DNA of 64,000 nt. Origin: an uncultured Candidatus Saccharibacteria bacterium. Its GTDB lineage: Bacteria; Patescibacteriota; SOKK01. The translations under genes were made by a program, and so were the position numbers. Where the stretch lies: assembly GCA_964518965.1 (NCBI GenBank), contig CAZFJP010000015.1, positions 13,314 through 77,313 on the forward strand, read 5' to 3'. This document shows, piece after piece, positions 1 to 11,793 of this stretch. A model generated the notes under the pieces. The model saw only the letters and a list, made by a program, of their open reading frames with translations. It did no database searches and was not told the origin of the DNA. Positions within the stretch are counted from its first letter, which is position 1. Each line of letters begins with the position of its first letter.

Positions 1-63
1 TTGTTGAATCTGGTCAAATTTATGATTACCGGCAATTGGGTTGACGATGTAGTAATACATAGG

Positions 64-187
64 ATAAAGTAAAAAATCAAAAGGCAAAAATTGAAGTATT
101 ATTTAGCTAAAGAAAGTAAAATGAAAAACTCACATTTTTGCACTTTACTTTCAATTTTGCTTCTTGATTTTTGCTTTTTGCCTTTGG
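64..187. repeat. AT-rich palindromic element, copy E1
   Basis: Arms aaagtaaaaaatcaaaaggcaaaaattgaagta and tactttcaattttgcttcttgatttttgctttttgccttt around the core tttagctaaagaaagtaaaatgaaaaactcacatttttgcac. The right arm encodes the last about 12 codons of ruvB. Confidence 0.65.
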
Positions 188-1200
188 AGATGTTCTTTCG
201 CTCTATCCGTTGCTTCTCTCCCCTTCGCTGTTCTATTTAAGAAACCTAATCTAATCAAATATGGTTCGCAAACACACTCAATTGTTTCTTCGTCCTCTGC
301 AATTGCCGCGGCTAAAGTTTTTAATCCTACTGGTCCACCATCAAATTTATCAATTAAAGCAGAAAGTAATTGGCGGTCAACTTCATCTAATCCTTTACTG
401 TCAACATTAAACATTTTTAAGGCCTTTTCGGCAATTTCCAAAGTAATCTTACCATCCCCTTTCACTTCAGCATAGTCGCGCACGCGTTTCAGAAGCCGAT
501 TAGCAATACGCGGCGTTTTTCGAGAACGCTTGGCAATCTCCTTACGTGCTAATGAGTCTAGCTTAATACTGAGAATCTTCGCAGAACGTTTCAAGATATC
601 ATCAATTTCCACATCTGAGTAGAAATCCAAGCGATAAGTTACCCCAAAGCGGTCGCGTAGGGGACCGGACAGAGCGCCGATTTTTGTTGTCGCGCCAATA
701 ATAGTCAGAGGTGGCAGTTCCATGCGGAGATTTTTTGCTCCCGGTCCTTTACCTAACATGATATCCAAAACCGAATCTTCCATTGCGGGATACAAAAGTT
801 CCTCTGCCTGAGTATTTAAGCGATGAATTTCATCAATAAATAAGACATCACCGGGACTTAAACTAGCAAGCAAAGAAGCAAGATCCCCGATTCGTTCAAT
901 CGCCGGACCACTAATTACTTTAAGATTACCCCCAATTTCATTGGCAATGATATTCGCAAGAGTCGTCTTTCCAATACCGGGCGGACCATATAATAAAATA
1001 TGTTCCAATGCTTCCTGACGTCTTTTTGCCGCCTGAATAAAAATTTCCAAACTTTGTTTAATCTGTCTTTGTCCAACATATTCAGCTAATTTTTGCGGTC
1101 GCAAAGTCAAATCAAGAACTTGATCTTCCTTTTGTGGTTTCGCATCTAATAAATTTTCTTCAACTGCGTTCTTTGAACTTCTTCGGGTAATTTTTTTCAT
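151..1200 (-). CDS. ruvB: Holliday junction branch-migration ATPase RuvB
   Basis: 349 aa. AAA+ Walker A LYGPPGIGKTTLA and RuvB-typical length/order, immediately downstream of ruvA with 4-nt overlap. The C-terminal Lys-rich tail is encoded inside repeat element E1. Confidence 0.9.
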   Translation of the reverse strand: MKKITRRSSKNAVEENLLDAKPQKEDQVLDLTLRPQKLAEYVGQRQIKQSLEIFIQAAKRRQEALEHILLYGPPGIGKTTLANIIANEIGGNLKVISGPAIERIGDLASLLASLSPGDVLFIDEIHRLNTQAEELLYPAMEDSVLDIMLGKGPGAKNLRMELPPLTIIGATTKIGALSGPLRDRFGVTYRLDFYSDVEIDDILKRSAKILSIKLDSLARKEIAKRSRKTPRIANRLLKRVRDYAEVKGDGKITLEIAEKALKMFNVDSKGLDEVDRQLLSALIDKFDGGPVGLKTLAAAIAEDEETIECVCEPYLIRLGFLNRTAKGREATDRAKEHLQRQKAKIKKQN

Positions 1201-1757
1201 TCACTTAACAGTTTAAGAACATATTTTAAGCGTTCTTGCACAGTTTTTAAACCACTCGGGATCTTGCTAATTACTTCATTTATCTGAGTTGGTTCATAGC
1301 CGAGACCTTGCAAAGCTAGCTGTACTTCTTCCGTTCCTGGTCTGGCTGCTATTTTCTCCTTCTCCAGTTTAGATTTCAACTCCACCACCAATCGTTCTGC
1401 AGTCTTTCTCCCAATACCCGGAATTGCCTTTAAAAAAGCAATATCCTCGCCAATAATCGCCAGATGTAATTGGCTGACACTTGCTTTTTCCAAAACTTTT
1501 AAGGCTACCTTAGGGCCAATTCCCGGAACAGAAATTAAGGTGTTAAATAACTTTAGTTCTGCAGGATTGGGAAAACCAAATAAGCTCAAATTGTCCTCGC
1601 GGACATGCAGGTGAATATGCAATTTTACTTCTTCGCCTGCCTTATATTGCTCTAGATAACGTTTTAAAGTGAAAACTTCAAAACCCACTCCGCCAATAAG
1701 CAGTGTTAGAGAATTTTGATTAACGTTCTGAATTGAACCTTTAAGATAAGAAATCAC
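1197..1757 (-). CDS. ruvA: Holliday junction DNA helicase subunit RuvA
   Basis: 186 aa. N-terminal MISYLKG motif, helix-hairpin-helix region (IPGIGPKVA, IPGIGRKTAERLV), translationally coupled to ruvB. Confidence 0.85.
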   Translation of the reverse strand: MISYLKGSIQNVNQNSLTLLIGGVGFEVFTLKRYLEQYKAGEEVKLHIHLHVREDNLSLFGFPNPAELKLFNTLISVPGIGPKVALKVLEKASVSQLHLAIIGEDIAFLKAIPGIGRKTAERLVVELKSKLEKEKIAARPGTEEVQLALQGLGYEPTQINEVISKIPSGLKTVQERLKYVLKLLSE

Positions 1758-2494
1758 TACTTCAGCTTAAATATTCTTTTAGCATTTCCAAAGAGAATTT
1801 TTTTCTGATCTTTTTGAGAAAAACTCTGTTTTATTTCACCTAACAAACGATGGGGATTTTTCTTCTGATAAATCATATGTTCATCAGAACCAAAGATTAC
1901 TCTTCCTGCTCCACATTCTTTTACTGCTCTTTTCACCTGATCAATGTTCCTGCCAGAAACTTCCAAATAAACATTTTTAAAACGCTTGCAGAGTACAATT
2001 GCCTCTTCTAAAGGACTCATGTGATAAAGAATAAAAGTAATTCGAGGAAAACTCTTAATGAATGTGGTAAAAATTTTAGCGTTACAGTAGTTTGAGTTGC
2101 CTGTATGAAAAACAACTGGCAAATTGTGAGTTTGAGCAAAATTTAATACCGGATTTAAAATTTCTTTTGTGGGATAATAACGATTCAATGAAGAATGAAG
2201 CTTAATCCCTACACACTCTTCTCGATCAACGTACTTTTCTGCATCTTTTCTCCACTCTGGATCATAAGGGTTAATCCAGATTAATTTTTTCAATCTGCTA
2301 CGAAAACGATTAACAAAATCAAAAGTTTCCCGATTGCCCCATTGTTGACCGATTGTTGCGCTTCCTAAAGAAGAAACAATTCCAATTTTTGTTCCTCGTA
2401 AAAAATGATTACGTTTTTTCTTCCTCCTTCCGTAAATTCCGGCATTGAATTTTCCTAAGTGAAGATGGGAATCAATATGATACACGGGTAACAA
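1757..2494 (-). CDS. amidohydrolase-2-like TIM-barrel metal-dependent hydrolase
   Basis: 245 aa. N-terminal HxH (DSHLHLG), internal HTG and C-terminal GSDEHM motifs typical of the PF04909-type amidohydrolase fold. Last gene of the ATP-grasp block, start overlaps ruvA stop. Confidence 0.5.
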   Translation of the reverse strand: MLPVYHIDSHLHLGKFNAGIYGRRKKKRNHFLRGTKIGIVSSLGSATIGQQWGNRETFDFVNRFRSRLKKLIWINPYDPEWRKDAEKYVDREECVGIKLHSSLNRYYPTKEILNPVLNFAQTHNLPVVFHTGNSNYCNAKIFTTFIKSFPRITFILYHMSPLEEAIVLCKRFKNVYLEVSGRNIDQVKRAVKECGAGRVIFGSDEHMIYQKKNPHRLLGEIKQSFSQKDQKKILFGNAKRIFKLK

Positions 2495-3457
2495 TTATTT
2501 TTTTAGAGATACTGCCTCTTTAAACATTTTAATCATCGCCAAATAAACTCTTTTTTGCAAAGCGCGATCTTCGGGATAAAAATAAATTCCCGGTTTAGTA
2601 TTAAGTTCAACAAGATAGGGCTTTCCTTTGGAATCAAAGAAAAAATCAATTCCCAGGATTCGTGGATAAAAAATCTTTAATCTCTTATCAATTCTTCTGA
2701 TTAATTTTTTCACCGAAGCGGGAACTTGATTATTTTTGATATTAATCATTACCCCACCCTGATGAATATTGCTCAAGAAAGAGCCTTTTTTAGCGAGACG
2801 GAAATAAGCATAAATAATTCTACCATTAATCACAAAAACACGAAGATCATGCACTCCTTTTACGAGATTTTTATATCCTTTACTGGTGTCGATAAATTCT
2901 TGAACAAGTACTTGTTTTCTGATTTTTAGTTGATTTGCTTGTTTGCGACTCAAAATCTTTACCCCAAATCCCCCAGACCCAATCGGAAATTTAAAGACAA
3001 CCTTATGACCGCGGATTAACTTAAGCGCTCTCTTTAATTCATGTTGATTTGATACCACTGAAGTTTTAGCAAACAAAGAAGGAAAAATAAAATAAGAGTA
3101 AAGTTTATTATCAAGAAGCAAAGTTAAATCAAGATTATTAATAACACTAAAATATTTCTCCAGAACTCGAGTTTTTAATATTTCTGATAAATCTGAAGGT
3201 CCTTTATCAAAAACAAGGTCTGGTTTAAATTTTTTAACCTTTTTCCAACTACCGTTCCGAAACACCCAGCCATTTTTAAATACTCCCCGCTGTTTATCGA
3301 ATTGAAACAAATTGGATTTGTAAAAAATAACGCCGTTTTTCTCTCCTAGCCAAGCAAGGTAATCATAACATTCTTTATAATTGGGCTTAAAAAACGGCTG
3401 CTTCAACTTCTCATCACGATAACTATTAAGAACCATTACTTTTATTTTCTGATGCAT
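2495..3457 (-). CDS. ATP-grasp family ligase (RimK/GshB-like)
   Basis: 320 aa. ATP-grasp signature spacing: KFPIGSGGFGV, LVQEFID, RVFVINGRIIYAY, ELNTKPG. Confidence 0.65.
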   Translation of the reverse strand: MHQKIKVMVLNSYRDEKLKQPFFKPNYKECYDYLAWLGEKNGVIFYKSNLFQFDKQRGVFKNGWVFRNGSWKKVKKFKPDLVFDKGPSDLSEILKTRVLEKYFSVINNLDLTLLLDNKLYSYFIFPSLFAKTSVVSNQHELKRALKLIRGHKVVFKFPIGSGGFGVKILSRKQANQLKIRKQVLVQEFIDTSKGYKNLVKGVHDLRVFVINGRIIYAYFRLAKKGSFLSNIHQGGVMINIKNNQVPASVKKLIRRIDKRLKIFYPRILGIDFFFDSKGKPYLVELNTKPGIYFYPEDRALQKRVYLAMIKMFKEAVSLKK

Positions 3458-3468
3458 ATAATTTTTAA

Positions 3469-4473
3469 CTAATCTAAATTAGGCTTACGATTGATTTCAC
3501 TTTCTTTACCACTAAAAAACAAAAAATCAATCAGGGCATCAGCGGGATTGTGAGCTTTACCAAAACTTGGCTGAGTGTGCATTAAAATATCGGGGTTAGG
3601 ATTAACTTCAGTTACTTTGCCGGGGGTTTTGGTAATATCTGGAGAAATAAAATCGATTCCCAATACCGGAGAAGCAAACTTACGGGCAATTGTAATTGCA
3701 ATTGATTTTGCTTCTCTACAAATCATTCCGGTCTTGTTAACTGTAAATCCTCCAAAATGAACATTAGAAGTAGTGCTTAATTTCACTTTTTGACCCTTTT
3801 TAGGAACGCTTTTTCGATTTAACCCTTGAATATTTAAAGCAAGATCAATCGATTTACTTGGTATCTCGCGAAATTTTTTCAACGATCCAGTAAAAACTCT
3901 ACCTTTCTTGATTAGAGTCGTAATCATACTTTTGCCATCACCAATTGTATAGGCCGGATTCCGTTGCAGGCAGAAAACCTTTTTGTATCCTACAACTAAA
4001 ACTCGATAATCATTACCATCTAAAAACTCCTGAATTAAAAAATGTTTACTGCCACCAAGATACTTTTTAACATTTTGAATTGCTTCTTTTAACAACTTTT
4101 GATTAGTAATCCCAGCAGTAACACCCAAACCCCACTTCAACCCTACCGGCTTAACAACAACATTTCGATATTTCTTCAGAAAAGATAAGCATTCCTTAAA
4201 AGTTTTTACTTCCTTAGTTGCGGGAACGGGTACCTTCCAGCGCTTAAATAAAGCATAAGAAAGATCTTTTCGGTTGGCCGCAATAAAAGATCCTGATTCC
4301 ATATTACCAAAAAGGGATTGGAAAAAAGTATATGATTTCTTACCTTTACTTAATTGGTATAAAAGCATGCGTGTCAAAAAAGATTTGAATCTAATTCCTC
4401 TTTTAAGCGCTGCATCAACAATTAATTTAGAAAGAGTATAGGGATTTTTTACATTTATCTTTGGTTTTTCCAT
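3469..4473 (-). CDS. ATP-grasp ligase, cyanophycin-synthetase-N-terminal-domain-like
   Basis: 334 aa. C-terminal half GIDFISPDI...EVNPNPDILMHTQPSFGKAHNPADALIDFLF resembles the CphA N-terminal ATP-grasp domain (GIDxI..DI...EVNxxPG..MH..P..G..R.VA.AI.D.LF). Assignment from memory of the family. Confidence 0.6.
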   Translation of the reverse strand: MEKPKINVKNPYTLSKLIVDAALKRGIRFKSFLTRMLLYQLSKGKKSYTFFQSLFGNMESGSFIAANRKDLSYALFKRWKVPVPATKEVKTFKECLSFLKKYRNVVVKPVGLKWGLGVTAGITNQKLLKEAIQNVKKYLGGSKHFLIQEFLDGNDYRVLVVGYKKVFCLQRNPAYTIGDGKSMITTLIKKGRVFTGSLKKFREIPSKSIDLALNIQGLNRKSVPKKGQKVKLSTTSNVHFGGFTVNKTGMICREAKSIAITIARKFASPVLGIDFISPDITKTPGKVTEVNPNPDILMHTQPSFGKAHNPADALIDFLFFSGKESEINRKPNLD

Positions 4474-4492
4474 TATATTGGAAGGTTAGCAA

Positions 4493-5389
4493 TTACTTCT
4501 TTTTACTCTTTTGGATAAGATAATCAACGATCATCCCGGCAATATTAACACCAGTAACCAATTGACACCGGGGAAAATAACAAGGAAAATTCACTTCCAT
4601 TACATAGGGATTATTTTTTTGGTCAAAAATAATATCCACTCCTCCAAATTCAATTTGTTTTAATGCTACCGCCTTAATCGCAATTTTCTCTACCTCTGAA
4701 GAAAATTTTTTTGGTTTGACAATTGGTTTTTCGCCAACATTAGTACGAAATTCTCCCGGGGGAGCAAGATATTCAATGCTATCAACAACCTTGTTACCAA
4801 GAACGATAAGACGAGCATGCGAGACTACTTCAGACTTTATAAATTCTCTCAAGATTAAATCGCGATCGCTACTTTTAAATTTTTTAATCGCGGAAAAAAG
4901 CGCAGGAAAAGAATCAGCTAAGGCAACACCCCTCCCATGACTACTCATTGTGTCTTTAACAATAACCGGAAACCCGCCTAGATATTTAACACTTTTTTTA
5001 AGATCTTCTCGGTCCAACGAGACATTAAAAACTGTTTTGGGAACTGGTACGCCATATTTCTGGTAAAGAAAGAATGAACTGGAAATTTCAAAACTATATA
5101 AACCGCGATAATAGTTATGATAAAAAGTTATTGCTCCCTGAGTAATAAAAAACTTTTCAACCAATCTCGCAATCGGAGAGATATTCGAGCGATAAACTAG
5201 ATCGCTTTTATTGATTTTAATTCGCTCTTCAAAAAAGCGAAAATTAAGCGCATCAATCTCACAAAAATTTATTCCTCTTTGACCGCAAGCTTTTCTAAGT
5301 AATTTGCTGGGAACAGTATTACGTTTAAAAACACCATCAGGATTAAAAGCATCAATGTGATAAAAATTAATCTCCTTCATTTTAACCAA
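4493..5389 (-). CDS. RimK-like ATP-grasp alpha-L-glutamate-ligase-type enzyme
   Basis: 298 aa. GFPVIVKD, LILREFI, HARLIVLGNKVV, GGVDIIFDQKNNPYVMEVN motifs in ATP-grasp order. Confidence 0.7.
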   Translation of the reverse strand: MVKMKEINFYHIDAFNPDGVFKRNTVPSKLLRKACGQRGINFCEIDALNFRFFEERIKINKSDLVYRSNISPIARLVEKFFITQGAITFYHNYYRGLYSFEISSSFFLYQKYGVPVPKTVFNVSLDREDLKKSVKYLGGFPVIVKDTMSSHGRGVALADSFPALFSAIKKFKSSDRDLILREFIKSEVVSHARLIVLGNKVVDSIEYLAPPGEFRTNVGEKPIVKPKKFSSEVEKIAIKAVALKQIEFGGVDIIFDQKNNPYVMEVNFPCYFPRCQLVTGVNIAGMIVDYLIQKSKKK

Positions 5390-6772
5390 TTATTTCCCTG
5401 GCTCCACTAAAAACTTTTTCAAGTCCTTCCTCCCTACAATCATCTGATAGTCTAATTCCTCCCGACTAATAATGGAAACTTTTGAAAAAATCTTTTTTTT
5501 AGAAATTTCAAACATTAGTTTAATCCTCGGACGAATGGTCACACCATGACTGGAATAAACAACAACAATATCAGCAAGATCAGAATGTTTGCCGTGGTAT
5601 TTGCGATTTAATTGCTGTTCAACTTTTCTCGCCCCAGCACGACTCTCAATTTCCGGCAGCTTAATCTTCTGAAAAAACTTAATCAAATCGCAAAATCCCA
5701 GTTTTCTTGCCAACTCTTCATCAACCGAGCTTGAAAATGCCCCCGTATCTATCTTTGCTTCCACTTCAATTCTCCGCCCGTTTTTTCCAATGAGAATAAC
5801 TTTTTCCACTGTACCAATTACCTGCTTTCCTGAAATTTCCTCAATTTCATCTTCAATCTCACCACCAAAAAGATTCTTGGCAATGCGAATACCATGAGCA
5901 ACATCACGAACTTGCAAGCGCTCTACTTTTTCCAAGCGATAGCGCAGTGGGGCTAGGTTCGCGACTTGAATTGCCAAGCCGGGACGAGCATTAAGTTCCA
6001 AAATCATCGGACCTCTTTTCTGATCAACAACAATATCCGCGCCAAGAAACCCAATCCCGGAAACTTGCTGCGCTTCAATGGCAATCTTCAAAATATCATC
6101 CCAAAAAGGAATGTGAAATCCGGCAACTGGCATTTTAGTGTCAGGAGTTTCAGTAATCACCTTACCCCACATCACTGCCTCTGTCGTCACACCGGTAGCA
6201 ATGTCAATCCCAGCACCTACAGCACCAAGATGCAAATTTGCTTTTCCTTGCGAAGTTTTAGTTGGAAGCCGAGTTTCTGCCATTACTGGAACTGAATTAT
6301 AGACAATCACACGAATATCTGGTATCCCTTGGAAAATATATGGCCAGAAATCTTTATGAGGAGTAAGTTTTTCTTCAAAGAAAGCAATATCGGGCACGCC
6401 GCTCATGGAATAATGACCGTCTAAAATATCATTTAAATGAACAACTAGTTCCCGGTGAGTCATCTTTGTTCCGTTCGCCCGAAGTAAATTGCCATTGCGA
6501 AAACGTTTCTTGAAAACAATAATCCCTTCACCTCCCAGTCCTCGGTTCGGTTTCAAAACAAAACTTTTTGGTAATTTGCCCCACTTAAAATCGTCAATAT
6601 CTTTACGATTTCTAATAATCCCGTAAATTTTTGGCACGGGAAGACCAGAAGCACGCAATGCTTCCTTGGTTGCTAATTTATCATCAGCCAAATGAATTGC
6701 TTTTCTTGGATTGCTCGGACGAATGTAAAGCAAATTGCGAGCATTCATACCGAGAAGATCCTTTAATCTCAT
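5390..6772 (-). CDS. fusion protein: RimK-related ATP-grasp ligase plus C-terminal clan-AA (retropepsin-like, DTGA) protease domain
   Basis: 460 aa. The N-terminus MNARNLLYIRPSN...DDKLATKEAL...GLPVP resembles the alpha-L-glutamate-ligase-related (rimK_rel) family. The ATP-grasp core is GADIVVDQKRGPMILELNARPG. The C-terminal domain contains EVEAKIDTGAFSS, i.e. an Asp-Thr-Gly-Ala active-site motif as in RimB/Zn_protease-type retropepsin-like domains that are normally separate genes next to rimK. Confidence 0.65.
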   Translation of the reverse strand: MRLKDLLGMNARNLLYIRPSNPRKAIHLADDKLATKEALRASGLPVPKIYGIIRNRKDIDDFKWGKLPKSFVLKPNRGLGGEGIIVFKKRFRNGNLLRANGTKMTHRELVVHLNDILDGHYSMSGVPDIAFFEEKLTPHKDFWPYIFQGIPDIRVIVYNSVPVMAETRLPTKTSQGKANLHLGAVGAGIDIATGVTTEAVMWGKVITETPDTKMPVAGFHIPFWDDILKIAIEAQQVSGIGFLGADIVVDQKRGPMILELNARPGLAIQVANLAPLRYRLEKVERLQVRDVAHGIRIAKNLFGGEIEDEIEEISGKQVIGTVEKVILIGKNGRRIEVEAKIDTGAFSSSVDEELARKLGFCDLIKFFQKIKLPEIESRAGARKVEQQLNRKYHGKHSDLADIVVVYSSHGVTIRPRIKLMFEISKKKIFSKVSIISREELDYQMIVGRKDLKKFLVEPGK

Positions 6773-6797
6773 AAGTTTATGATTATCTCAAGATCAA

Positions 6798-6933
6798 ATT
6801 AAAAAATCAAAAGGTAAAAAGCAAAATTGAATGCAAAAACATGGGATCTCTGCGTTTTAATTTTTTTAGCTGAATAAATACTTTAATTTTACTTTTTTAC
6901 ATTTAATTTTGCATTTTGATTTTTGCTTTTTGA
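6798..6933. repeat. AT-rich palindromic intergenic element, copy E2
   Basis: Left arm aaaaaatcaaaaggtaaaaagcaaaattgaatgcaaaaa and right arm ttttgcattttgatttttgctttttgaattt are imperfect reverse complements around a core containing tttagctgaataaatactttaattttac. It fills the gap between the 7TM gene stop and the ATP-grasp-protease start. Related to E1, E3 and E4. Confidence 0.7.
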
Positions 6934-6952
6934 ATTTAGACCATGCAATAGA

Positions 6953-8515
6953 CTATTTTTTGGTCTTCCTGTTAGCTCTTATCACCTCTCGGAATCTCCA
7001 CAATTCCCACAAACGCAAACCAGAATATAAACCCACTAAAACATTAATAGGAATTAAAGCAAAAATCCATTCGGGAGTATTAAGAATAAACGTGCGGAGA
7101 TATTCCCAACTCGCAGTGTAATAAGCAATGATAGAAATAATTAAAGTTTCAACGGTTAAAATAACTGCTGTGCGCGGACCTTTTTCAATCTGAGCACTAA
7201 CAAATTGTTCCACAAGAATAATCATTACAAGAATGGGAAAAACAGAAACAGAAATAACCTCCGTCACTTTGAAATAAACCCCTACTGCCCAAAGTCCTAA
7301 GATTGCTAAACTAACAACAGTGATCAAAATTGCCATGCGTGGAAGATAAAGAAGACGTAGACGGCGGAGCAAAAATCTACCAATAGTTCCAATAAGTAGA
7401 ATGAGTGCAAAAATAATGATGCCATAACGCAGACCAATTGCTAAAAAGGAAAGCGCGATTAATGAAGGAATAAAAATACCAAATGTCTTAAAACCAATCA
7501 ACTGACGCGCCAACGCGATTAAAGTCGCAACAATCGGAAGCATTAAAATCAAAGCAAGAACATTAGCAGGAACACCATTCCTCTTCATGGCATTTACCGT
7601 ATAGGAAAGAAAATTATAATAGCGGAAGGACATCACTTTCTGCGCTTCCGCGGCACCAATGACGCGATAATCCAACTGTTTCGCCTGTAAAATTGAGGTT
7701 AATGCGCGCGTATCTTCGATTGTCACTAAAGTATCAAGAGCATCTTCGCGAGTAAGAACAAAATCATCCGGTTTTAGAATATCCGCAGCAGATTTTGCTA
7801 ATTGTTCAATACTACCAAAACTTTTATTGCTAGTCGCGACAAAAGTTTTGTGCGAGAGATCTAAATCGGTCTGCTGACCAAAACGAGAAAGAACGTTAAA
7901 ACCAACACTGCCTTCGGTCCAAGTGATAACTAAATCGGCTTGCTCGACTAAACGACTTTTCTCTAACAAAGACTTAGCGAGAGATTCCTCAGTAGTAAAG
8001 TCCGGACTTACTCCCCGAGGCCGAATGATCTCCAAAAGAATCCCTTTCTTACTCGCTTGTCTTTTCAAAATATTAATTTCACTCTCATCACTCTTAGAAG
8101 TAACCAAAATAATCAGATTGGAGTAAACGTCCACCGTTAAACTATCACTAGTTTCCAGATCTTTGGTACGCAGGGTAAGAATAACTTTGTAATGACCGGG
8201 TGTACTGTAAGGATGAACAACTTCTTTACCCTTTCCTTGAGTTCCATCACCAAAATCCCAAAGATACTCTACAGTGCTACCACGAGGGATAATAGAACGA
8301 CTAGCATCAAAAATTGCCTTTTTGCCAACGCCAATACTAAAGTCCTCACCGGCTACTGCCTCCAAGCGATTGTTAGCGGAAAAAATGGGGGTAATAATCG
8401 CAAAAGTACAAATCAATCCGAGAAAAATTGAGAGTATTTTTTTCATTATCATAATCATAATTAGATAATAAAGGTAGAAGGCTGAAGGCGGAAGTATGAA
8501 GATTAAAAACTTCAA
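6953..8515 (-). CDS. membrane protein: N-terminal signal sequence, PKD domain, central domain, C-terminal 7-TM module
   Basis: 520 aa. The PKD hallmark is YLWDFGDGTQGKG..HPYSTPGHYKVIL. Seven predicted TM helices lie in the last about 210 aa. The likely true start is the MKKILSIFLGL signal peptide at 8446 or 8452. The architecture is reminiscent of the 7TM partners of ATP-grasp peptide-modification systems (from memory, not searched). Confidence 0.55.
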   Translation of the reverse strand: MKFLIFILPPSAFYLYYLIMIMIMKKILSIFLGLICTFAIITPIFSANNRLEAVAGEDFSIGVGKKAIFDASRSIIPRGSTVEYLWDFGDGTQGKGKEVVHPYSTPGHYKVILTLRTKDLETSDSLTVDVYSNLIILVTSKSDESEINILKRQASKKGILLEIIRPRGVSPDFTTEESLAKSLLEKSRLVEQADLVITWTEGSVGFNVLSRFGQQTDLDLSHKTFVATSNKSFGSIEQLAKSAADILKPDDFVLTREDALDTLVTIEDTRALTSILQAKQLDYRVIGAAEAQKVMSFRYYNFLSYTVNAMKRNGVPANVLALILMLPIVATLIALARQLIGFKTFGIFIPSLIALSFLAIGLRYGIIIFALILLIGTIGRFLLRRLRLLYLPRMAILITVVSLAILGLWAVGVYFKVTEVISVSVFPILVMIILVEQFVSAQIEKGPRTAVILTVETLIISIIAYYTASWEYLRTFILNTPEWIFALIPINVLVGLYSGLRLWELWRFREVIRANRKTKK

Positions 8516-8527
8516 ACTTCAGCCTTC
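8477..8527. repeat. GC-richer hairpin repeat (family 2, copy A)
   Basis: Perfect 11-bp stem gaaggctgaag / cttcagccttc with an internal gcggaag...cttc, followed by a T-run on the plus strand. It overlaps the last codons of ruvC. A related copy is at 21316-21370. Confidence 0.6.
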
Positions 8528-8998
8528 ATTTTTTGTATTAAACATATGGCATATCGCTATTGCTAAAGCATCCGCAGCATCATCCGGTTTGGGAATCTCT
8601 TTCAATTTCAAAAGTAATTGCACCATCCTTTGCACTTGTTCCTTGCCCGCACGACCGTAGGTAGTAATCGTTTGCTTTACTTGCAAAGGAGTATAATCAA
8701 CAACTGGAATACGGCATTCCGCGCCCAAAAGCAGAATTACTCCCCGTGCCTGGCCAATTTTTAGGGCAGTTTTACTATTTTTAGCGAAGAAAATTTCTTC
8801 CACTGCCAAACAATCTGGTTGATACTTATCAATGACCTTTTTTACCTCTTTATAAAGCTGCTGTAACCGCAACGGCATTGGTTGTGATTTTTTCGTTTTG
8901 ATACAACCAAAACGCACCACCCTTAAATTATCTCTATCACCTGATATTACACCGTACCCCAAAGCCGCTGTTCCGGGATCAATTCCTAAAATAATCAT
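8519..8998 (-). CDS. ruvC: crossover junction endodeoxyribonuclease RuvC
   Basis: 159 aa. MIILGIDPGTAALGYGV N-terminus with catalytic Asp, RNase-H-like fold order, C-terminal DAADALAIA. Confidence 0.85.
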   Translation of the reverse strand: MIILGIDPGTAALGYGVISGDRDNLRVVRFGCIKTKKSQPMPLRLQQLYKEVKKVIDKYQPDCLAVEEIFFAKNSKTALKIGQARGVILLLGAECRIPVVDYTPLQVKQTITTYGRAGKEQVQRMVQLLLKLKEIPKPDDAADALAIAICHMFNTKNEG

Positions 8999-9001
8999 TG
9001 A

Positions 9002-9077
9002 ATGTTAGATGTTAGATGTGAGATGTTAGATGTAAGATGTTTCCAATTCTAACATCTAACATCTTACTCCTAACATC
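9002..9077. repeat. heptad-iteron palindrome (family 3, copy C)
   Basis: Five tandem TAGATGT-like heptads (tagatgt tagatgt gagatgt tagatgt aagatgt), spacer ttccaattc, then inverted heptads aacatctaacatcttac..taacatc. It fills the entire 77-bp gap between the TPR-gene stop and the ruvC start. Confidence 0.65.
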
Positions 9078-10491
9078 ATTCTATTTTCCGCCAATTACTA
9101 AACTCTCCACTTAAATCTAAATCAATCGCCCGTGCATAACTTTCTCTCGCTTCCTTCATATGCCCCTGGTCTCTTAGAATTAGTGCTTTAACATAATAAG
9201 CGAAAGCAAAATCATAATCCGAGCGCAAAACTTGATTTACTTTATTAGTTGCTTCTTTCAGTCGGTTTTCTTTCCAAAGTTTTAATCCCTCCAAAGTCAA
9301 TTTCAACGACTTTTCCATGCTACTAATCAATTCATCAACTAGCTCAGTTTTACTAAGCTCCACTAAATTGCAATAGGCAAGCTGAATGTAATTGTTGAAA
9401 TATTTATCATCTTGTTCTAATCCTTTAGCAAAATAAACCGCCGCTTTATCAAAATCTTTCTTGCGTTCGGAAGCAATTCCCAAACGGAAATAGAGATCCG
9501 CACTTTGATATTTTAACTTTTCTGACTTGATAAATGACTGCTCTGACTGATCTAATTTTCCTTCGGCAAGTTGAATTCTTCCTAGAAGATAGTAAGTCAA
9601 ACCGTAAACCCGATCGCTTTTGAGAGCATTTTGAATCGCACTCTCCGCATCATTATATCGGAAACGCTGAAAGTAAGCATAGGCTTTTCCAAGCCAAGCA
9701 TCGCGATAGTCTGGCAAAAACTCTAGCGCCTTACTAAAAGCAACTTGTGCTACTTCTGGTTCTCTTAAATCATTGGCTAGTTTACCTACTAAGGCATAGT
9801 AATAAACTTGATTTTTCTGTTTTTCTAAATTAGTCAATTCACTCAAAATTCTTTCATTTTTAGTCCGCAACGAATGCTCACCTTTGTTTTTAAGCTGCTT
9901 AAGAGTAGTTTTTGCTTCACTGGGATTCTTTCGTGCCAACTGGATAAGTCCCTTGAGATAAAGAGTTTCGGAATTATCGGAAGTAAGTAGAGTAATCGCC
10001 GGCTCAATATTGCCAATACCAAGATAACTTCTAGCAAGAATTAAACTACCTTCTTCGCTTTCACTCAAAAGTAGCTGTGACTCTTGATCACGCTTGACTT
10101 CTTCATCTAAAATAGTTTGGTAATCTCCCTGCCTCAACTCATAACCAGAGATACCTAGAATTGCATCTTTATCCTTGGGAGCAATATCAATTGCTCTCCT
10201 GTAATTTTCTGACGCTTTACTGAATTGTCCTTTTAACTCATAGATCTCACCTAGTCTCAAATAAACTTTCGCCGTTTGATCTACACTCCCGCCAATTGCT
10301 AGTGCTTTCTCTAAATTCTCAATTGCTTTAGTATATTGCTTTTGCTTAAACAACTGATCACCACGGTTGTAATACTTAGCCTGAGTTTCTATAAAGAAAG
10401 AGTGACCGAAAGTTAAATAAGAAATACTTATCGCTAAAATAATTGCCCCGATAATAATTGAAATGATAAGAATTTTTTTATTGCGTGTCAT
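9076..10491 (-). CDS. TPR-repeat protein with N-terminal membrane anchor
   Basis: 471 aa. N-terminal hydrophobic helix ILIISIIIGAIILAISI, then multiple 34-aa TPR-like units (AxxxYxxALxxxP patterns). Confidence 0.7.
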   Translation of the reverse strand: MTRNKKILIISIIIGAIILAISISYLTFGHSFFIETQAKYYNRGDQLFKQKQYTKAIENLEKALAIGGSVDQTAKVYLRLGEIYELKGQFSKASENYRRAIDIAPKDKDAILGISGYELRQGDYQTILDEEVKRDQESQLLLSESEEGSLILARSYLGIGNIEPAITLLTSDNSETLYLKGLIQLARKNPSEAKTTLKQLKNKGEHSLRTKNERILSELTNLEKQKNQVYYYALVGKLANDLREPEVAQVAFSKALEFLPDYRDAWLGKAYAYFQRFRYNDAESAIQNALKSDRVYGLTYYLLGRIQLAEGKLDQSEQSFIKSEKLKYQSADLYFRLGIASERKKDFDKAAVYFAKGLEQDDKYFNNYIQLAYCNLVELSKTELVDELISSMEKSLKLTLEGLKLWKENRLKEATNKVNQVLRSDYDFAFAYYVKALILRDQGHMKEARESYARAIDLDLSGEFSNWRKIE

Positions 10492-10591
10492 ACTTAACGA
10501 TAGAATCAGTAAAAAGAATTCCTTGTTTTTTAAAAAGGTTGGAACTGCCTATATTATAGCTTAAAAATGGGATAAATTAAACAAGAGCTTT

Positions 10592-10620
10592 GACAAGAAA
10601 GGCAAAATCTGTTAAATTAG
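10592..10620 (+). promoter_or_regulatory. sigma70-like promoter for 10673 gene
   Basis: TTGACA, 17 nt, TAAATT in ctttgacaagaaaggcaaaatctgttaaattagag. Confidence 0.4.
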
Positions 10621-10672
10621 AGTCTAACCCGAAAGAACCCTAACAATTTCAAAAGAAAGGTGGTGAATAAAG

Positions 10673-11437
10673 ATGGGTATGTTTCTAGTAATTGAAGGAG
10701 TTGTTGTTGAAATCCCCCGCTTCTTCTATTCTACACCAGCAGCTTCCTTCACTTTCATCATCAAAGTCCCAGTTCAAGATCTTGCTCCTCATCGTTATCA
10801 CCCCCACTCCCAAGAAGAAGAGCGAACCTGGCGCTTAATCCTAGGACCAGAGTTTGAGATTTTTAACGAGCAGGACCCCTCTCCCCGTCGTGATCTCCGC
10901 AAGCTCATTCGCTTCTTTAATCTATACGAAGAGAGCCTTCAACCAATTACTATTCCGCGGTTAATCGGGTGCTATCTAGCAACCGCTTTTGCTGAGTACT
11001 CTTCTCGCTCTTCTGCCATGGCAGGAAAACTCGTCAATAACCTTGTCATAAAACTTCCTCTTGAACTTAGCAAAATCATGAAAGCACAGGAGATATTTAA
11101 GGAGGGTATCCGCCAAGGATGGGATATTGCTTGCGGAATCCTCCACAGCCCCTATCTCTCTCCCGAGACCAGTCCCAAAGCTACCAAGGTAATCCATGTG
11201 TCCCCGCCATTCTTCCCACCACCTCCGGAGGAAACACTTCCTGAAGAGCCAACCTTACCACCCCCTCCGCCAGAATCACCCATTCTTAAAGAATCAGCCA
11301 AACTCCCTCCCCGACCTGAACTCCCGCCAGCAGCAACTACCAAAGTAGCCAATGTACTTGACAATATCGATCGCTTCTTGAGAGAAGATAGGGATAAAAC
11401 ACCAACGCCACCACCTGAATTTCCTCCACTGAAATAA
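10673..11437 (+). CDS. hypothetical proline-rich protein
   Basis: 254 aa. The C-terminal third is Pro-rich (PPFFPPPPEETLPEEPTLPPPPPESP). RBS-like ggtggtg upstream. Locally elevated GC. No recognisable domain. Confidence 0.35.
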   Translation: MGMFLVIEGVVVEIPRFFYSTPAASFTFIIKVPVQDLAPHRYHPHSQEEERTWRLILGPEFEIFNEQDPSPRRDLRKLIRFFNLYEESLQPITIPRLIGCYLATAFAEYSSRSSAMAGKLVNNLVIKLPLELSKIMKAQEIFKEGIRQGWDIACGILHSPYLSPETSPKATKVIHVSPPFFPPPPEETLPEEPTLPPPPPESPILKESAKLPPRPELPPAATTKVANVLDNIDRFLREDRDKTPTPPPEFPPLK

Positions 11438-11444
11438 AAAAGCC

Positions 11445-11472
11445 GCCCAACTTATCAAAAAGGCGGCTTTTC
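11445..11472 (+). terminator. rho-independent terminator
   Basis: agccgcc...ggcggct stem followed by tttc. Confidence 0.5.
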
Positions 11473-11744
11473 ATTGACAAGAAACCGACAAGGAACCCTA
11501 GAAATGTTAAGCTACAACCTAACTAGACTCAAAGCACTTTCCCAACTGAAAGGAGTGAGACAAATGAGATTTTGGAAATGGCTGGAAGAAACCCAACATC
11601 CAGATTTCCATCGTCAAGGCGTGGCCAAAATACGGAGGAGAAAGCCAAAAACTACTGAACTCCTTTCCTTGTTTTCTCATCTGGGACACCCTTGTCTTCA
11701 TCGTTTCCTACTTTGGAGGCTATACCCTGCACCCTTGGCAAAAA

Positions 11745-11779
11745 TAAAACCACCTCGTCACAACGAGAGGTGGTTTTTT
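11745..11779. terminator. bidirectional rho-independent terminator (valS 3' end)
   Basis: ccacctcg tcacaacga gaggtgg stem, A-run upstream and T-run downstream. Confidence 0.55.
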
Positions 11780-11793
11780 ATTTCTAAAATATT

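What the first reader, a model, noticed from the sequence alone, without database searches (positions are those of the whole stretch)
5390..6772. In-frame fusion of a RimK-related ATP-grasp ligase with a retropepsin-like DTGA protease
In proteobacterial rimABK-type loci the RimK glutamate ligase and the RimB retropepsin-like protease are separate polypeptides. Here one 460-aa ORF carries both. The ATP-grasp core motif GADIVVDQKRGPMILELNARPG is followed by IEVEAKIDTGAFSS. This implies coupled ligation and proteolysis on the same substrate.
Basis: partly seen in the sequence, partly recalled or inferred. Interest (0 to 1): 0.6.

Follow-up and report, generated by a model that had tools for sequence, protein, structure and literature searches.

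The report
Ligase–retropepsin fusion enzyme, common in Patescibacteria
One gene really does encode a RimK-like peptide ligase joined to a retrovirus-type aspartic protease, but this is the standard, widespread form of the recently described "Rlo" stress-tolerance system in tiny Patescibacteria, not a one-off oddity.

Summary
The 460-aa ORF is real, uninterrupted, and on the minus strand (5390..6772). Residues 1-~300 are an RloC-type ATP-grasp ligase (PF14397, E=4e-67; nearest solved folds are RimK). Residues ~321-460 are a RimB/RloA-type retropepsin. This rests on a profile match to RloA crystal structures (E=4e-8), Foldseek top hits to Lpg0085, RloA and HIV-1 protease, and invariant DTGA.

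The fusion is not an artefact. The same architecture occurs in 51 of 80 genome loci from many Patescibacteria lineages (37-54% identity). A 7TM "RloB-like" gene lies directly upstream in 75 of 80.

The right comparison is the rloABC operon (mBio 2025), not rimABK. In Proteobacteria RloA is a separate, secreted protein. Here it is fused to the cytosolic ligase and lacks both the signal peptide and the disulfide cysteines. A reverse-order RimB-RimK hybrid is already published (JBC 2025).

Sister lineages replace the active retropepsin with a MATCAP metallocarboxypeptidase. This suggests a conserved ligase-plus-peptidase module.

Most likely function: build and trim acidic (poly-Glu-like) peptides together with the membrane partner.

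Verdict: a new variant of a known kind, of moderate interest.

The parts
5390..6772 (-). Whole fusion gene, 460 aa: RloC-type ATP-grasp, acidic linker, retropepsin-like domain
   Evidence: ORF. Pfam and NCBIfam. AF2 model has mean pLDDT 86.2 with two folded domains and a disordered linker at aa 306-316.
5873..6772 (-). ATP-grasp ligase domain (aa 1-300), PF14397 ATPgrasp_ST / TIGR02291 'alpha-L-glutamate ligase-like' (RloC type)
   Evidence: PF14397 E=3.7e-67 over aa 12-284. TIGR02291 scores 289 bits against a cutoff of 314. Foldseek top hits are RimK 5zct, 5zk6, 4iwx and 7qys, then ArgX/LysX and CphA1. K74, D118, D152, R154, N179, D246, E259, N261 and R263 are invariant in 65 homologs.
5813..5872 (-). 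Inter-domain linker (aa 301-320), LFGGEIEDEIEEISGKQVIG: Glu-rich and predicted disordered
   Evidence: pLDDT is below 50 for aa 306-316. F302, G303, G304, E307, E311, S314 and G315 are invariant in the Moran/Paceibacteria-type clade. The motif is not conserved in Woese/Levy/Microgenomates-type loci. Stand-alone RloC ends just after the LFG(G) motif.
5393..5812 (-). Retropepsin-like aspartic protease domain (aa 321-460), PF05618 (RimB/RloA family), with a ~45-aa helical insert (aa ~352-392) after the DTGA strand
   Evidence: The profile of 20 homologs hits RloA 9g58 at E=4e-8, RloA2 9g59 at 1e-6 and Lpg0085 2pma at 2e-5. All 20 members match PF05618. For the domain model (pLDDT 84), Foldseek ranks 2pma, 9g58 and 9g59 first, then HIV-1 protease, DDI1 and APRc.
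5738..5749 (-). Catalytic motif D342-T343-G344-A345
   Evidence: Read directly from the sequence. Invariant in 120 of 120 and 65 of 65 homologs. K340, R414-P415, R437 and G447 are also (near-)invariant and align with the basic substrate-channel residues and the hhG(R/K) motif of RloA.
6953..8515 (-). Upstream partner gene, 520 aa: signal/anchor + PKD domain + unassigned middle region + 7TM_transglut bundle (RloB-like C-terminal half)
   Evidence: PF14402 E=4e-36 over aa 317-511 and PKD E=4e-16. NCBIfam RloB matches only the 7TM half, at 90 bits against a cutoff of 900. A 7TM gene lies less than 400 nt upstream of the ATP-grasp gene in 75 of 80 loci.
4493..5389 (-). Downstream RimK-family ATP-grasp (298 aa), abutting the fusion gene (gap 0)
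   Evidence: PF08443 E=5e-29; TIGR00768 scores 110 bits. Spacing.
3469..4473 (-). Downstream ATP-grasp resembling the cyanophycin-synthetase ATP-grasp module (334 aa)
   Evidence: TIGR02068 E=1e-49 over model positions 162-479.
2495..3457 (-). Fourth ATP-grasp (320 aa), ATPgrasp_ST/RimK/YheCD-like
   Evidence: PF14397 E=1e-17 and PF08443 E=3e-17.
1757..2494 (-). Amidohydrolase_2 family protein (245 aa), last gene of the packed cluster before ruvA
   Evidence: PF04909 E=1.4e-18. Gaps between cluster genes range from -4 to 19 nt.
6782..6810 (-). Promoter-like site (TTGATT-17-GATAAT with TG) in the 180-nt gap upstream of the fusion gene. Weak evidence only.
   Evidence: The number of such sites in the region does not exceed the shuffled expectation.

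Best explanation
This is the Patescibacteria (CPR) version of the rlo system. A 7TM membrane protein (RloB-like) is encoded next to one cytosolic polypeptide that combines the RloC-type ATP-grasp ligase with a RimB/RloA-type retropepsin. SHOWN here: both domains are present, both keep their catalytic residues, the fusion and the 7TM neighbour are conserved across many lineages, and the protein has no signal peptide or TM segment. INFERRED: the ATP-grasp makes alpha-linked acidic peptides, most likely poly-Glu, either free or as a tail on a substrate, as RimK does. The retropepsin domains pair up when the ligase oligomerises, forming the two-Asp active site. They then cut the ligase's own product, setting its length or turnover. 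This would be a self-contained write/trim module working with, or feeding, the 7TM partner. The fusion keeps the protease next to the ligase in the cytoplasm, as with RimB/RimK. In Pseudomonas the protease is instead exported to a periplasm.
For: Domain identity. Catalytic residues are invariant in both halves: the ATP-grasp set K74/D246/E259/N261/R263, and the protease set D342-T-G-A with G447. The basic residues K340, R414 and R437 align with RloA positions that the Rlo authors say bind poly-Glu. The protease domain has pI ~9.8. There is no signal peptide or TM segment (maximum 19-aa hydropathy 1.18), and the two cysteines that form the disulfide of periplasmic RloA are absent. Among 80 genome loci, 51 have the fusion with D[TS]G[AS], 14 non-CPR loci (labelled Proteobacteria, one Nitrospirales) have a stand-alone ATP-grasp and, where detected (7 of the 14), a separate retropepsin ORF about 2 kb upstream, and 75 have the 7TM gene directly upstream. 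The peptidase partner is swapped but retained. Thirteen Graci/Peri/Altimarinota-type loci carry a degenerate retropepsin plus a MATCAP metallocarboxypeptidase on the same ATP-grasp. Other proteins carry retropepsin at the N-terminus of RimK or other ATP-grasps, or on the 7TM protein itself. Published biology: RloA and RimB cleave poly-Glu; deleting rloB or rloC suppresses the defects of protease-less mutants, so the protease counteracts the RloBC product; and RimBK hybrids are proteolytically active (PMC12239564, PMC11957791).
Against: No biochemical data exist for any member of this fused family. The amino-acid specificity of PF14397/RloC ligases is unknown. TIGR02291 scores just below its trusted cutoff (289 against 314). 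PF05618 is only borderline on the single sequence (23.2 bits in the full protein, 27.4 on the isolated domain, against GA 27). Dimerisation could not be modelled. Related proteins place the protease outside the membrane: Pseudomonas RloA, and P0165 with a signal/anchor. The compartment of action is therefore not uniform across the family. The window encodes no poly-Glu tract or obvious acidic-tailed substrate.
Confidence: 0.6

Rival explanations
1. The C-terminal domain works mainly as a regulatory or substrate-holding module rather than as a counteracting protease. It would bind the acidic product or activate the ligase, as RimB stimulates RimK ATPase and poly-Glu synthesis.
For: RimB is reported to be bifunctional and to stimulate RimK (PMC11957791). 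In 13 sister loci the retropepsin-like segment persists after losing DTGA. That shows the domain can be kept for a non-catalytic role.
Against: In the window's clade DTGA, G447 and the basic channel residues are invariant across 65-120 sequences. This argues for retained catalysis. Where DTGA is lost, another peptidase (MATCAP) is added. That points to peptidase activity as the selected function.
Confidence: 0.15
2. The ligase does not make poly-Glu. It builds some other peptide or cell-envelope modification together with the three extra ATP-grasp enzymes and the amidohydrolase downstream, and the protease processes a different protein substrate.
For: Pfam names PF14397 'sugar-transfer associated'. 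Four ATP-grasp genes plus an amidohydrolase are packed in one cluster. The physiological Rlo substrate is unknown even in Pseudomonas.
Against: The nearest solved folds are RimK, ArgX and LysX, which are alpha-amino-acid/Glu ligases. The protease keeps the basic residues used for poly-Glu binding in RloA. The downstream ATP-grasp set varies between close relatives, whereas the 7TM + fusion core is constant.
Confidence: 0.15
3. It is a self-processing polyprotein. Like a retroviral protease, the domain cuts the conserved Glu-rich linker (GGEIEEExEEISG) to release itself, or the linker sits in the basic channel as a pseudosubstrate or autoinhibitor.
For: The linker is acidic and disordered in the model, yet has invariant positions within the clade. 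The related proteases cleave Glu-rich sequences.
Against: RimB needs at least 5-6 contiguous Glu, and this linker has at most 2-3 in a row. The acidic motif is absent from the Woese/Levy/Microgenomates-type fusions, so it cannot be a general feature of the family.
Confidence: 0.07
4. The fusion is an artefact: a frameshift, a mis-assembly, or two genes merged.
For: None beyond the general possibility in metagenome assemblies.
Against: The reading frame is uninterrupted. The same architecture appears in 51 of 80 independent genomes and in every one of the 120 best database hits.
Confidence: 0.01

Closest known systems
rloABC operon of Pseudomonas (RloA retropepsin, RloB inactive-transglutaminase 7TM protein, RloC ATP-grasp; Lormand et al., mBio 2025, PMC12239564)
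   Same: The ATP-grasp subfamily is the same (PF14397/TIGR02291). The retropepsin family is the same (PF05618; best PDB matches are the RloA structures 9g58 and 9g59). The same 7TM_transglut membrane partner is encoded immediately upstream of the ligase.
   Different: The protease is fused to the C-terminus of the ligase instead of being a separate secreted protein. It has no signal peptide and no disulfide cysteines, and it carries a ~45-aa helical insert. The membrane partner has PKD plus an unassigned region in place of the inactive transglutaminase domain. The hosts are Patescibacteria, whereas that paper reports RloB as 96% proteobacterial.
RimBK hybrid enzyme (Desulfotalea psychrophila DP2392; Little et al., JBC 2025, PMC11957791)
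   Same: A natural single-polypeptide fusion of a RimB-family retropepsin with a RimK-superfamily ATP-grasp. The protease half is active on poly-Glu tails.
   Different: The domain order is opposite (protease N-terminal). The ATP-grasp is RimK proper (PF08443) rather than PF14397. No 7TM partner is described. The reported hosts are Flavobacteriales, Rhodobacterales and Desulfotalea.
RimK/RimB (rimABK) ribosomal protein S6 poly-glutamylation system
   Same: A cytosolic ATP-grasp Glu ligase paired with a cytosolic retropepsin that trims its product. The nearest solved fold for the N-terminal domain is RimK.
   Different: They are separate proteins. RimK proper fails the family test here (TIGR00768 56 bits against 143). 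There is no RimA and no evidence for RpsF as the target.
Eukaryotic tubulin TTL (ATP-grasp) / MATCAP (metallocarboxypeptidase) tyrosination cycle
   Same: Sister-lineage orthologs of this ligase are fused to a MATCAP-family domain (PF08014). An ATP-grasp 'writer' is thus joined to a C-terminal-residue 'eraser'.
   Different: The window protein itself has no MATCAP domain. The analogy is architectural only.

Membership tests
PF05618 / RimB-RloA retropepsin-like aspartic peptidases | Catalytic D-T/S-G-A/S motif | tested here: met
   D342-T-G-A is invariant in 120 of 120 homologs.
PF05618 / RimB-RloA retropepsin-like aspartic peptidases | Family HMM match at or above the curated cutoff | tested here: inconclusive
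   23.2 bits in the full protein (below GA 27) and 27.4 bits for the isolated domain. All 20 clade members match, best E=7e-10. NCBIfam RloA3 scores only 26 bits against a cutoff of 210.
PF05618 / RimB-RloA retropepsin-like aspartic peptidases | Retropepsin fold | tested here: met
   Foldseek against PDB ranks 2pma, 9g58 and 9g59 first, then HIV-1 protease, DDI1 and APRc, all at probability 1.00. TM-score normalised to the target is 0.57-0.69. The profile-to-PDB match to 9g58 has E=4e-8.
PF05618 / RimB-RloA retropepsin-like aspartic peptidases | C-terminal hh-G-R/K motif and basic substrate-channel residues (K before DTG, R-P strand, D/E-R) | tested here: met
   G447 is invariant and position 448 is R or K. 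K340 (63 of 65), R414-P415 and R437 are invariant and align with RloA.
PF05618 / RimB-RloA retropepsin-like aspartic peptidases | Homodimer forming the Asp dyad; cleavage of poly-Glu | not testable with these tools
   No multimer modelling or biochemistry was available.
RloC / TIGR02291 alpha-L-glutamate ligase-like ATP-grasp (PF14397) | Family HMM match | tested here: met
   PF14397 scores 226.9 bits against GA 31.4. TIGR02291 scores 289 bits, just under its equivalog cutoff of 314. Membership therefore holds at family level, not at strict equivalog level.
RloC / TIGR02291 alpha-L-glutamate ligase-like ATP-grasp (PF14397) | Encoded directly downstream of a 7TM_transglut (RloB-type) gene | tested here: met
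   Window gene 6953..8515 has PF14402 at E=4e-36. The same adjacency holds in 75 of 80 loci.
rloABC operon in the strict sense | RloA is a separate secreted protein with a signal peptide and disulfide | tested here: not met
   The domain is fused, with no signal peptide and neither conserved cysteine.
rloABC operon in the strict sense | RloB carries an N-terminal inactive transglutaminase domain | tested here: not met
   Only the 7TM half matches (NCBIfam RloB 90 bits against 900). The N-terminal half is PKD plus an unassigned region.
RimK proper (TIGR00768 / PRK10446) | Family HMM above cutoff | tested here: not met
   TIGR00768 scores 56 bits against 143, and PRK10446 scores 20 bits against 331.
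RimBK hybrid | N-terminal RimB domain followed by C-terminal RimK domain | tested here: not met
   The order here is ATP-grasp then retropepsin, and the ATP-grasp belongs to a different subfamily. A true RimBK-type protein (P0231) looks different.

The most novel reading that the evidence does not exclude
The 7TM + ATP-grasp pair is an ancient 'writer' core whose 'eraser' peptidase is interchangeable and can move. It can be a retropepsin fused to the ligase (this window), a retropepsin secreted (Pseudomonas), tandem retropepsins fused to the 7TM protein, or a MATCAP carboxypeptidase fused to the ligase. That would make the CPR fusion a natural single-chain write/erase enzyme for acidic peptide tails. 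It would also imply that the still-unknown physiological Rlo substrate is the direct product of RloC, and it would offer a prokaryotic counterpart of the tubulin TTL/MATCAP cycle.
Probability: 0.3. Interest if true: 0.65.

Novelty: new variant of a known kind. Interest (0 to 1): 0.4.

Why it matters
The Rlo system matters for osmotic stress tolerance, antibiotic tolerance and biofilms in Pseudomonas, yet its substrate and mechanism are unknown. The authors state this themselves.

A conserved natural fusion of RloC with an RloA-type protease is classic 'Rosetta-stone' evidence that the protease acts on the ligase's product. The repeated swapping of the peptidase type supports the same reading.

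The fusion also gives a single soluble polypeptide in which ligation and trimming could be reconstituted in vitro. It extends the system to Patescibacteria, where the 2025 paper did not look.

The cytosolic placement here contrasts with the secreted protease in Pseudomonas. Any general model of the system has to explain that difference.

Tried and rejected
- Single-sequence searches of the C-terminal domain against PDB were too weak to interpret (best relevant E=0.14). A 20-sequence profile resolved this.
- I considered self-cleavage at the Glu-rich linker and downgraded it. The linker lacks the 5-6 contiguous Glu that RimB needs, and the motif is clade-specific.
- I looked in the window for a second retropepsin copy, encoded poly-Glu tracts, or acidic C-terminal tails that could be substrates. 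There were none.
- Rfam found nothing in 1..12000. Promoter and terminator scans did not exceed chance.
- I tried to read Iyer et al. 2009 (PMC3268129), which I recall as the source of the Pfam ATP-grasp/7TM families, to check for an earlier description of this architecture. It is not held.
- Literature searches for PF14397, TIGR02291, or retropepsin together with Patescibacteria found no description of this fusion.

Full report
**Observation**

Window 5390..6772 holds one uninterrupted ORF of 460 aa on the minus strand, starting at ATG. GADIVVDQKRGPMILELNARPG is aa 244-265 and IEVEAKIDTGAFSS is aa 335-348. DTGA is encoded at 5738..5749 (-). One public gene call starts at Met9 (452 aa), and the 460-aa form is also on record.

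**Domain identity**

The N-terminal ~300 residues match Pfam PF14397 (ATPgrasp_ST) at E=3.7e-67. They match NCBIfam TIGR02291, 'alpha-L-glutamate ligase-like protein', at 289 bits, just under its cutoff of 314. RimK proper is only a distant match: TIGR00768 scores 56 bits against 143.

A confident AF2 model (mean pLDDT 86.2) shows two folded domains joined by a disordered linker at aa 306-316. By Foldseek, the ATP-grasp half is closest to RimK structures (5zct, 5zk6, 4iwx, 7qys), then ArgX/LysX and cyanophycin synthetase.

On the single sequence, the C-terminal part gives only borderline hits. PF05618 scores 23.2 bits against GA 27, and NCBIfam RloA3 gives E=5e-6. A profile of 20 homologous C-terminal domains is much clearer. 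It hits the RloA crystal structure 9g58 at E=4e-8, RloA2 9g59 at 1e-6 and Legionella Lpg0085 (2pma) at 2e-5. All 20 sequences match PF05618, and 16 also match Asp_protease_2.

A separate model of the domain (pLDDT 84) retrieves 2pma, 9g58 and 9g59 first. HIV-1 protease, DDI1 and Rickettsia APRc follow. The would-refute condition 'not a retropepsin-like fold' is therefore not met.

**Catalytic competence**

Across 65 full-length homologs the following ATP-grasp residues are invariant: K74, D118, D152, R154, N179, D246, E259, N261 and R263. In the protease half D342-T-G-A, R414-P415, R437 and G447 are invariant. K340 is conserved in 63 of 65, and position 448 is R or K.

K340, R414 and R437 align with basic residues of RloA. 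The Rlo authors identify those residues as poly-Glu contacts. The domain has pI ~9.8.

It differs from RloA in having a ~45-residue helical insert after the DTGA strand.

**Not an artefact, and not rare**

A database search returned 7,899 homologs. The best 120 are all ~452-483 aa, all have DTGA, and most are from Patescibacteria such as Moranbacteria and Kerfeldbacteria.

A scan of species-representative genomes gave 80 loci, which I classified with tblastn and hmmsearch:
- 51 encode ATP-grasp + retropepsin with D[TS]G[AS]. Labelled lineages include Moran-, Pacei-, Falkow-, Woese-, Levy-, Shapiro- and Portnoybacteria and Microgenomates.
- 14 encode a stand-alone ATP-grasp with a 15-46 aa tail. 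Named examples are Luteimonas, Pseudomonas frederiksbergensis and a Nitrospirales MAG. In seven of them my profile detected a separate retropepsin ORF about 2 kb upstream, giving the order rloA-rloB-rloC.
- 13 have a long tail, described below.
- The last two are L028, described under 'Informative variation', and L037, whose tail is cut by the contig end.

A 7TM_transglut gene ends less than 400 nt upstream of the ligase gene in 75 of 80 loci. With the C-terminal profile, the exhaustive representative library holds 385 clusters at E≤1e-10.

**The right frame of reference**

The locus is rlo-like, not rimABK. The upstream gene (6953..8515, 520 aa) is signal/anchor + PKD + an unassigned region + 7TM_transglut. 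It matches the RloB model only over the 7TM half.

Lormand et al. (mBio 2025, PMC12239564) report the following for Pseudomonas:
- RloA proteases are secreted retropepsins that cleave poly-Glu.
- rloB or rloC deletions suppress the defects of the protease-less triple mutant.
- RloB hits are 96% proteobacterial.
- The physiological substrate is unknown.

The paper mentions neither fusions nor Patescibacteria.

Proteobacterial RloA sequences in my loci have N-terminal signal peptides and the two disulfide cysteines. The window domain has neither. The whole fusion protein also lacks any hydrophobic segment; the maximum 19-aa hydropathy is 1.18. In this organism the protease is therefore predicted to be cytosolic, like RimB.

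**Prior art on fusions**

Little et al. (JBC 2025, PMC11957791) describe 'RimBK'. It has RimB at the N-terminus of RimK, is found in 12% of rim-containing accessions (mainly Flavobacteriales and Rhodobacterales), and is proteolytically active.

The window protein has the opposite domain order and a different ATP-grasp subfamily, so it is a distinct fusion. I found no paper describing it. I could not read Iyer et al. 2009, which may discuss these architectures.

**Informative variation**

1. In 13 Gracilibacteria/Peribacteria/Peregrinibacteria/Altimarinota-type loci the orthologous ligase (43-54% identity) is ~800 aa. It carries a shortened retropepsin-like remnant in which DTGA has decayed (for example MDSGKE, VDSTQE, IAPEKE). 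After that comes a MATCAP/QEGLA metallocarboxypeptidase domain (PF08014 E=8e-52; TIGR02421).
2. Other architectures also exist: ATPgrasp_ST + retropepsin + MATCAP (P0133), a version with a second ATP-grasp added (P0216), and retropepsin at the N-terminus of RimK or other ATP-grasps (P0231, P0244, P0246). P0165 has a signal/anchor, two tandem retropepsins (DTGA, DSGS) and then the 7TM bundle.
3. Three loci (L014, L023, L028) add a second stand-alone retropepsin gene directly after the fusion gene. In L028 the fused copy reads DTGL.

A peptidase is thus persistently coupled to this ligase/7TM core, but its type, copy number and compartment vary.

**Mechanism**

The best-supported reading is that the ligase makes an acidic alpha-peptide, most likely poly-Glu, free or as a tail. 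The fused retropepsin, dimerised through ligase oligomerisation, trims it. The 7TM protein is the conserved membrane partner.

What is shown is domain identity, residue conservation, neighbourhood conservation and the predicted cytosolic location. The substrate, the dimerisation, and the functional relation between ligase, protease and 7TM protein are inferred from RimK/RimB and Rlo genetics.

The rivals are listed separately: a regulatory rather than catalytic role for the domain, a non-Glu product made with the neighbouring ATP-grasps, self-processing at the acidic linker, and artefact.

The linker (LFGGEIEDEIEEISG) is notable because it is Glu-rich and conserved within its clade. It has at most 2-3 consecutive Glu, whereas RimB requires 5-6, and it is absent from other fused clades.

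**Context in the window**

From ruvC (8519..8998) to ruvA/ruvB (151..1757), the genes on the minus strand are packed with gaps of -4 to 19 nt. The exception is a 180-nt gap before the fusion gene.

Three more ATP-grasp genes follow the fusion gene: RimK-like, CphA-like and ATPgrasp_ST-like. An Amidohydrolase_2 gene comes after them.

This accessory set varies among relatives, while 7TM + fusion is constant. A relative at 74% identity has only two extra ATP-grasps and no amidohydrolase. A Moranbacteria relative has a 590-aa GSH-S_ATP/RimK ATP-grasp protein and a CphA-like one.

**Verdict**

The feature is the common Patescibacteria form of a recently characterised system, and a different retropepsin-ligase fusion is already published.

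I rate it a new variant of a known kind, with interest 0.4. Its value is comparative evidence on how Rlo works, and a tractable single-chain enzyme for testing that.

Noticed in passing
L039:5968-8388, L052:5953-8394, L065:5968-8343, L045:5944-8316 (also L029, L035, L044, L048, L049, L053, L057, L058, L070): Orthologs of the window ligase in Gracilibacteria/Peribacteria/Altimarinota-type genomes are ~800 aa. They combine ATPgrasp_ST, a degenerate retropepsin remnant that has lost DTGA, and a MATCAP/QEGLA (PF08014, HExxxH...QEGLA) metallocarboxypeptidase. This is an ATP-grasp 'writer' fused to a MATCAP 'eraser', reminiscent of tubulin TTL/MATCAP.
   Followed up: partly
L014:7119-7664, L023:4320-4802, L028:2831-3331: A second, stand-alone retropepsin gene (with DTGA and the CPR-type helical insert) lies directly after the fusion gene. 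In L028 the fused copy has DTGL instead of DTGA. This hints at heterodimers or at subfunctionalisation.
   Followed up: partly
protein P0165 (487 aa, from the representative library): It has a signal/anchor, then two tandem retropepsin domains (DTGA, then DSGS), then the 7TM_transglut bundle. The tandem pair is a pepsin-like pseudo-dimer that replaces RloB's inactive transglutaminase and is predicted to lie outside the membrane. The window's domain is predicted to be cytosolic, which is the opposite topology.
   Followed up: partly
window 5813-5872 (-), aa 301-320: The inter-domain linker LFGGEIEDEIEEISG is Glu-rich and predicted disordered, yet has invariant residues within the Moran/Paceibacteria-type clade. 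It could be a pseudosubstrate or a self-cleavage site. It is absent from the Woese/Levy/Microgenomates-type fusions.
   Followed up: partly
window 1757-5389 (-): Three further ATP-grasp ligases (RimK-like, cyanophycin-synthetase-like, ATPgrasp_ST/YheCD-like) and an Amidohydrolase_2 are packed behind the fusion gene. Relatives carry 0-4 such extra ATP-grasps in varying combinations; L015 has four CphA-like hits in a row. Their product is unknown.
   Followed up: partly
window 151-8998; L001, L004, L007, L011-L013, L084: The whole cluster is inserted between ruvC and ruvA/ruvB. This synteny (ruvC, 7TM, fusion, ..., ruvA/B nearby) is conserved in many Moranbacteria-type genomes.
   Followed up: no
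L004, L008, L011, L012, L027, L030 ('Bdellovibrionales'); L028, L034, L038, L040, L042, L043 etc. ('Gammaproteobacteria'/'Pseudomonadales'): Many TPA 'binchicken' MAG records carry proteobacterial or Bdellovibrionales labels. By sequence identity, fusion architecture and ruvC synteny, their loci group with Patescibacteria. The taxonomic labels look unreliable, so I did not count them as evidence for the fusion outside CPR.
   Followed up: no
window 6953-8515 (-), aa ~130-300: The region of the 7TM partner between the PKD domain and the 7TM bundle has no family match. In Moranbacteria relatives the partner is only the 222-aa 7TM bundle, so the extracellular part is highly variable.
   Followed up: no
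window 10673-11437 (+): This 254-aa ORF has a very proline-rich C-terminal half (PPFFPPPPEETLPEEPTLPPPPPESP...). I did not examine it.
   Followed up: no
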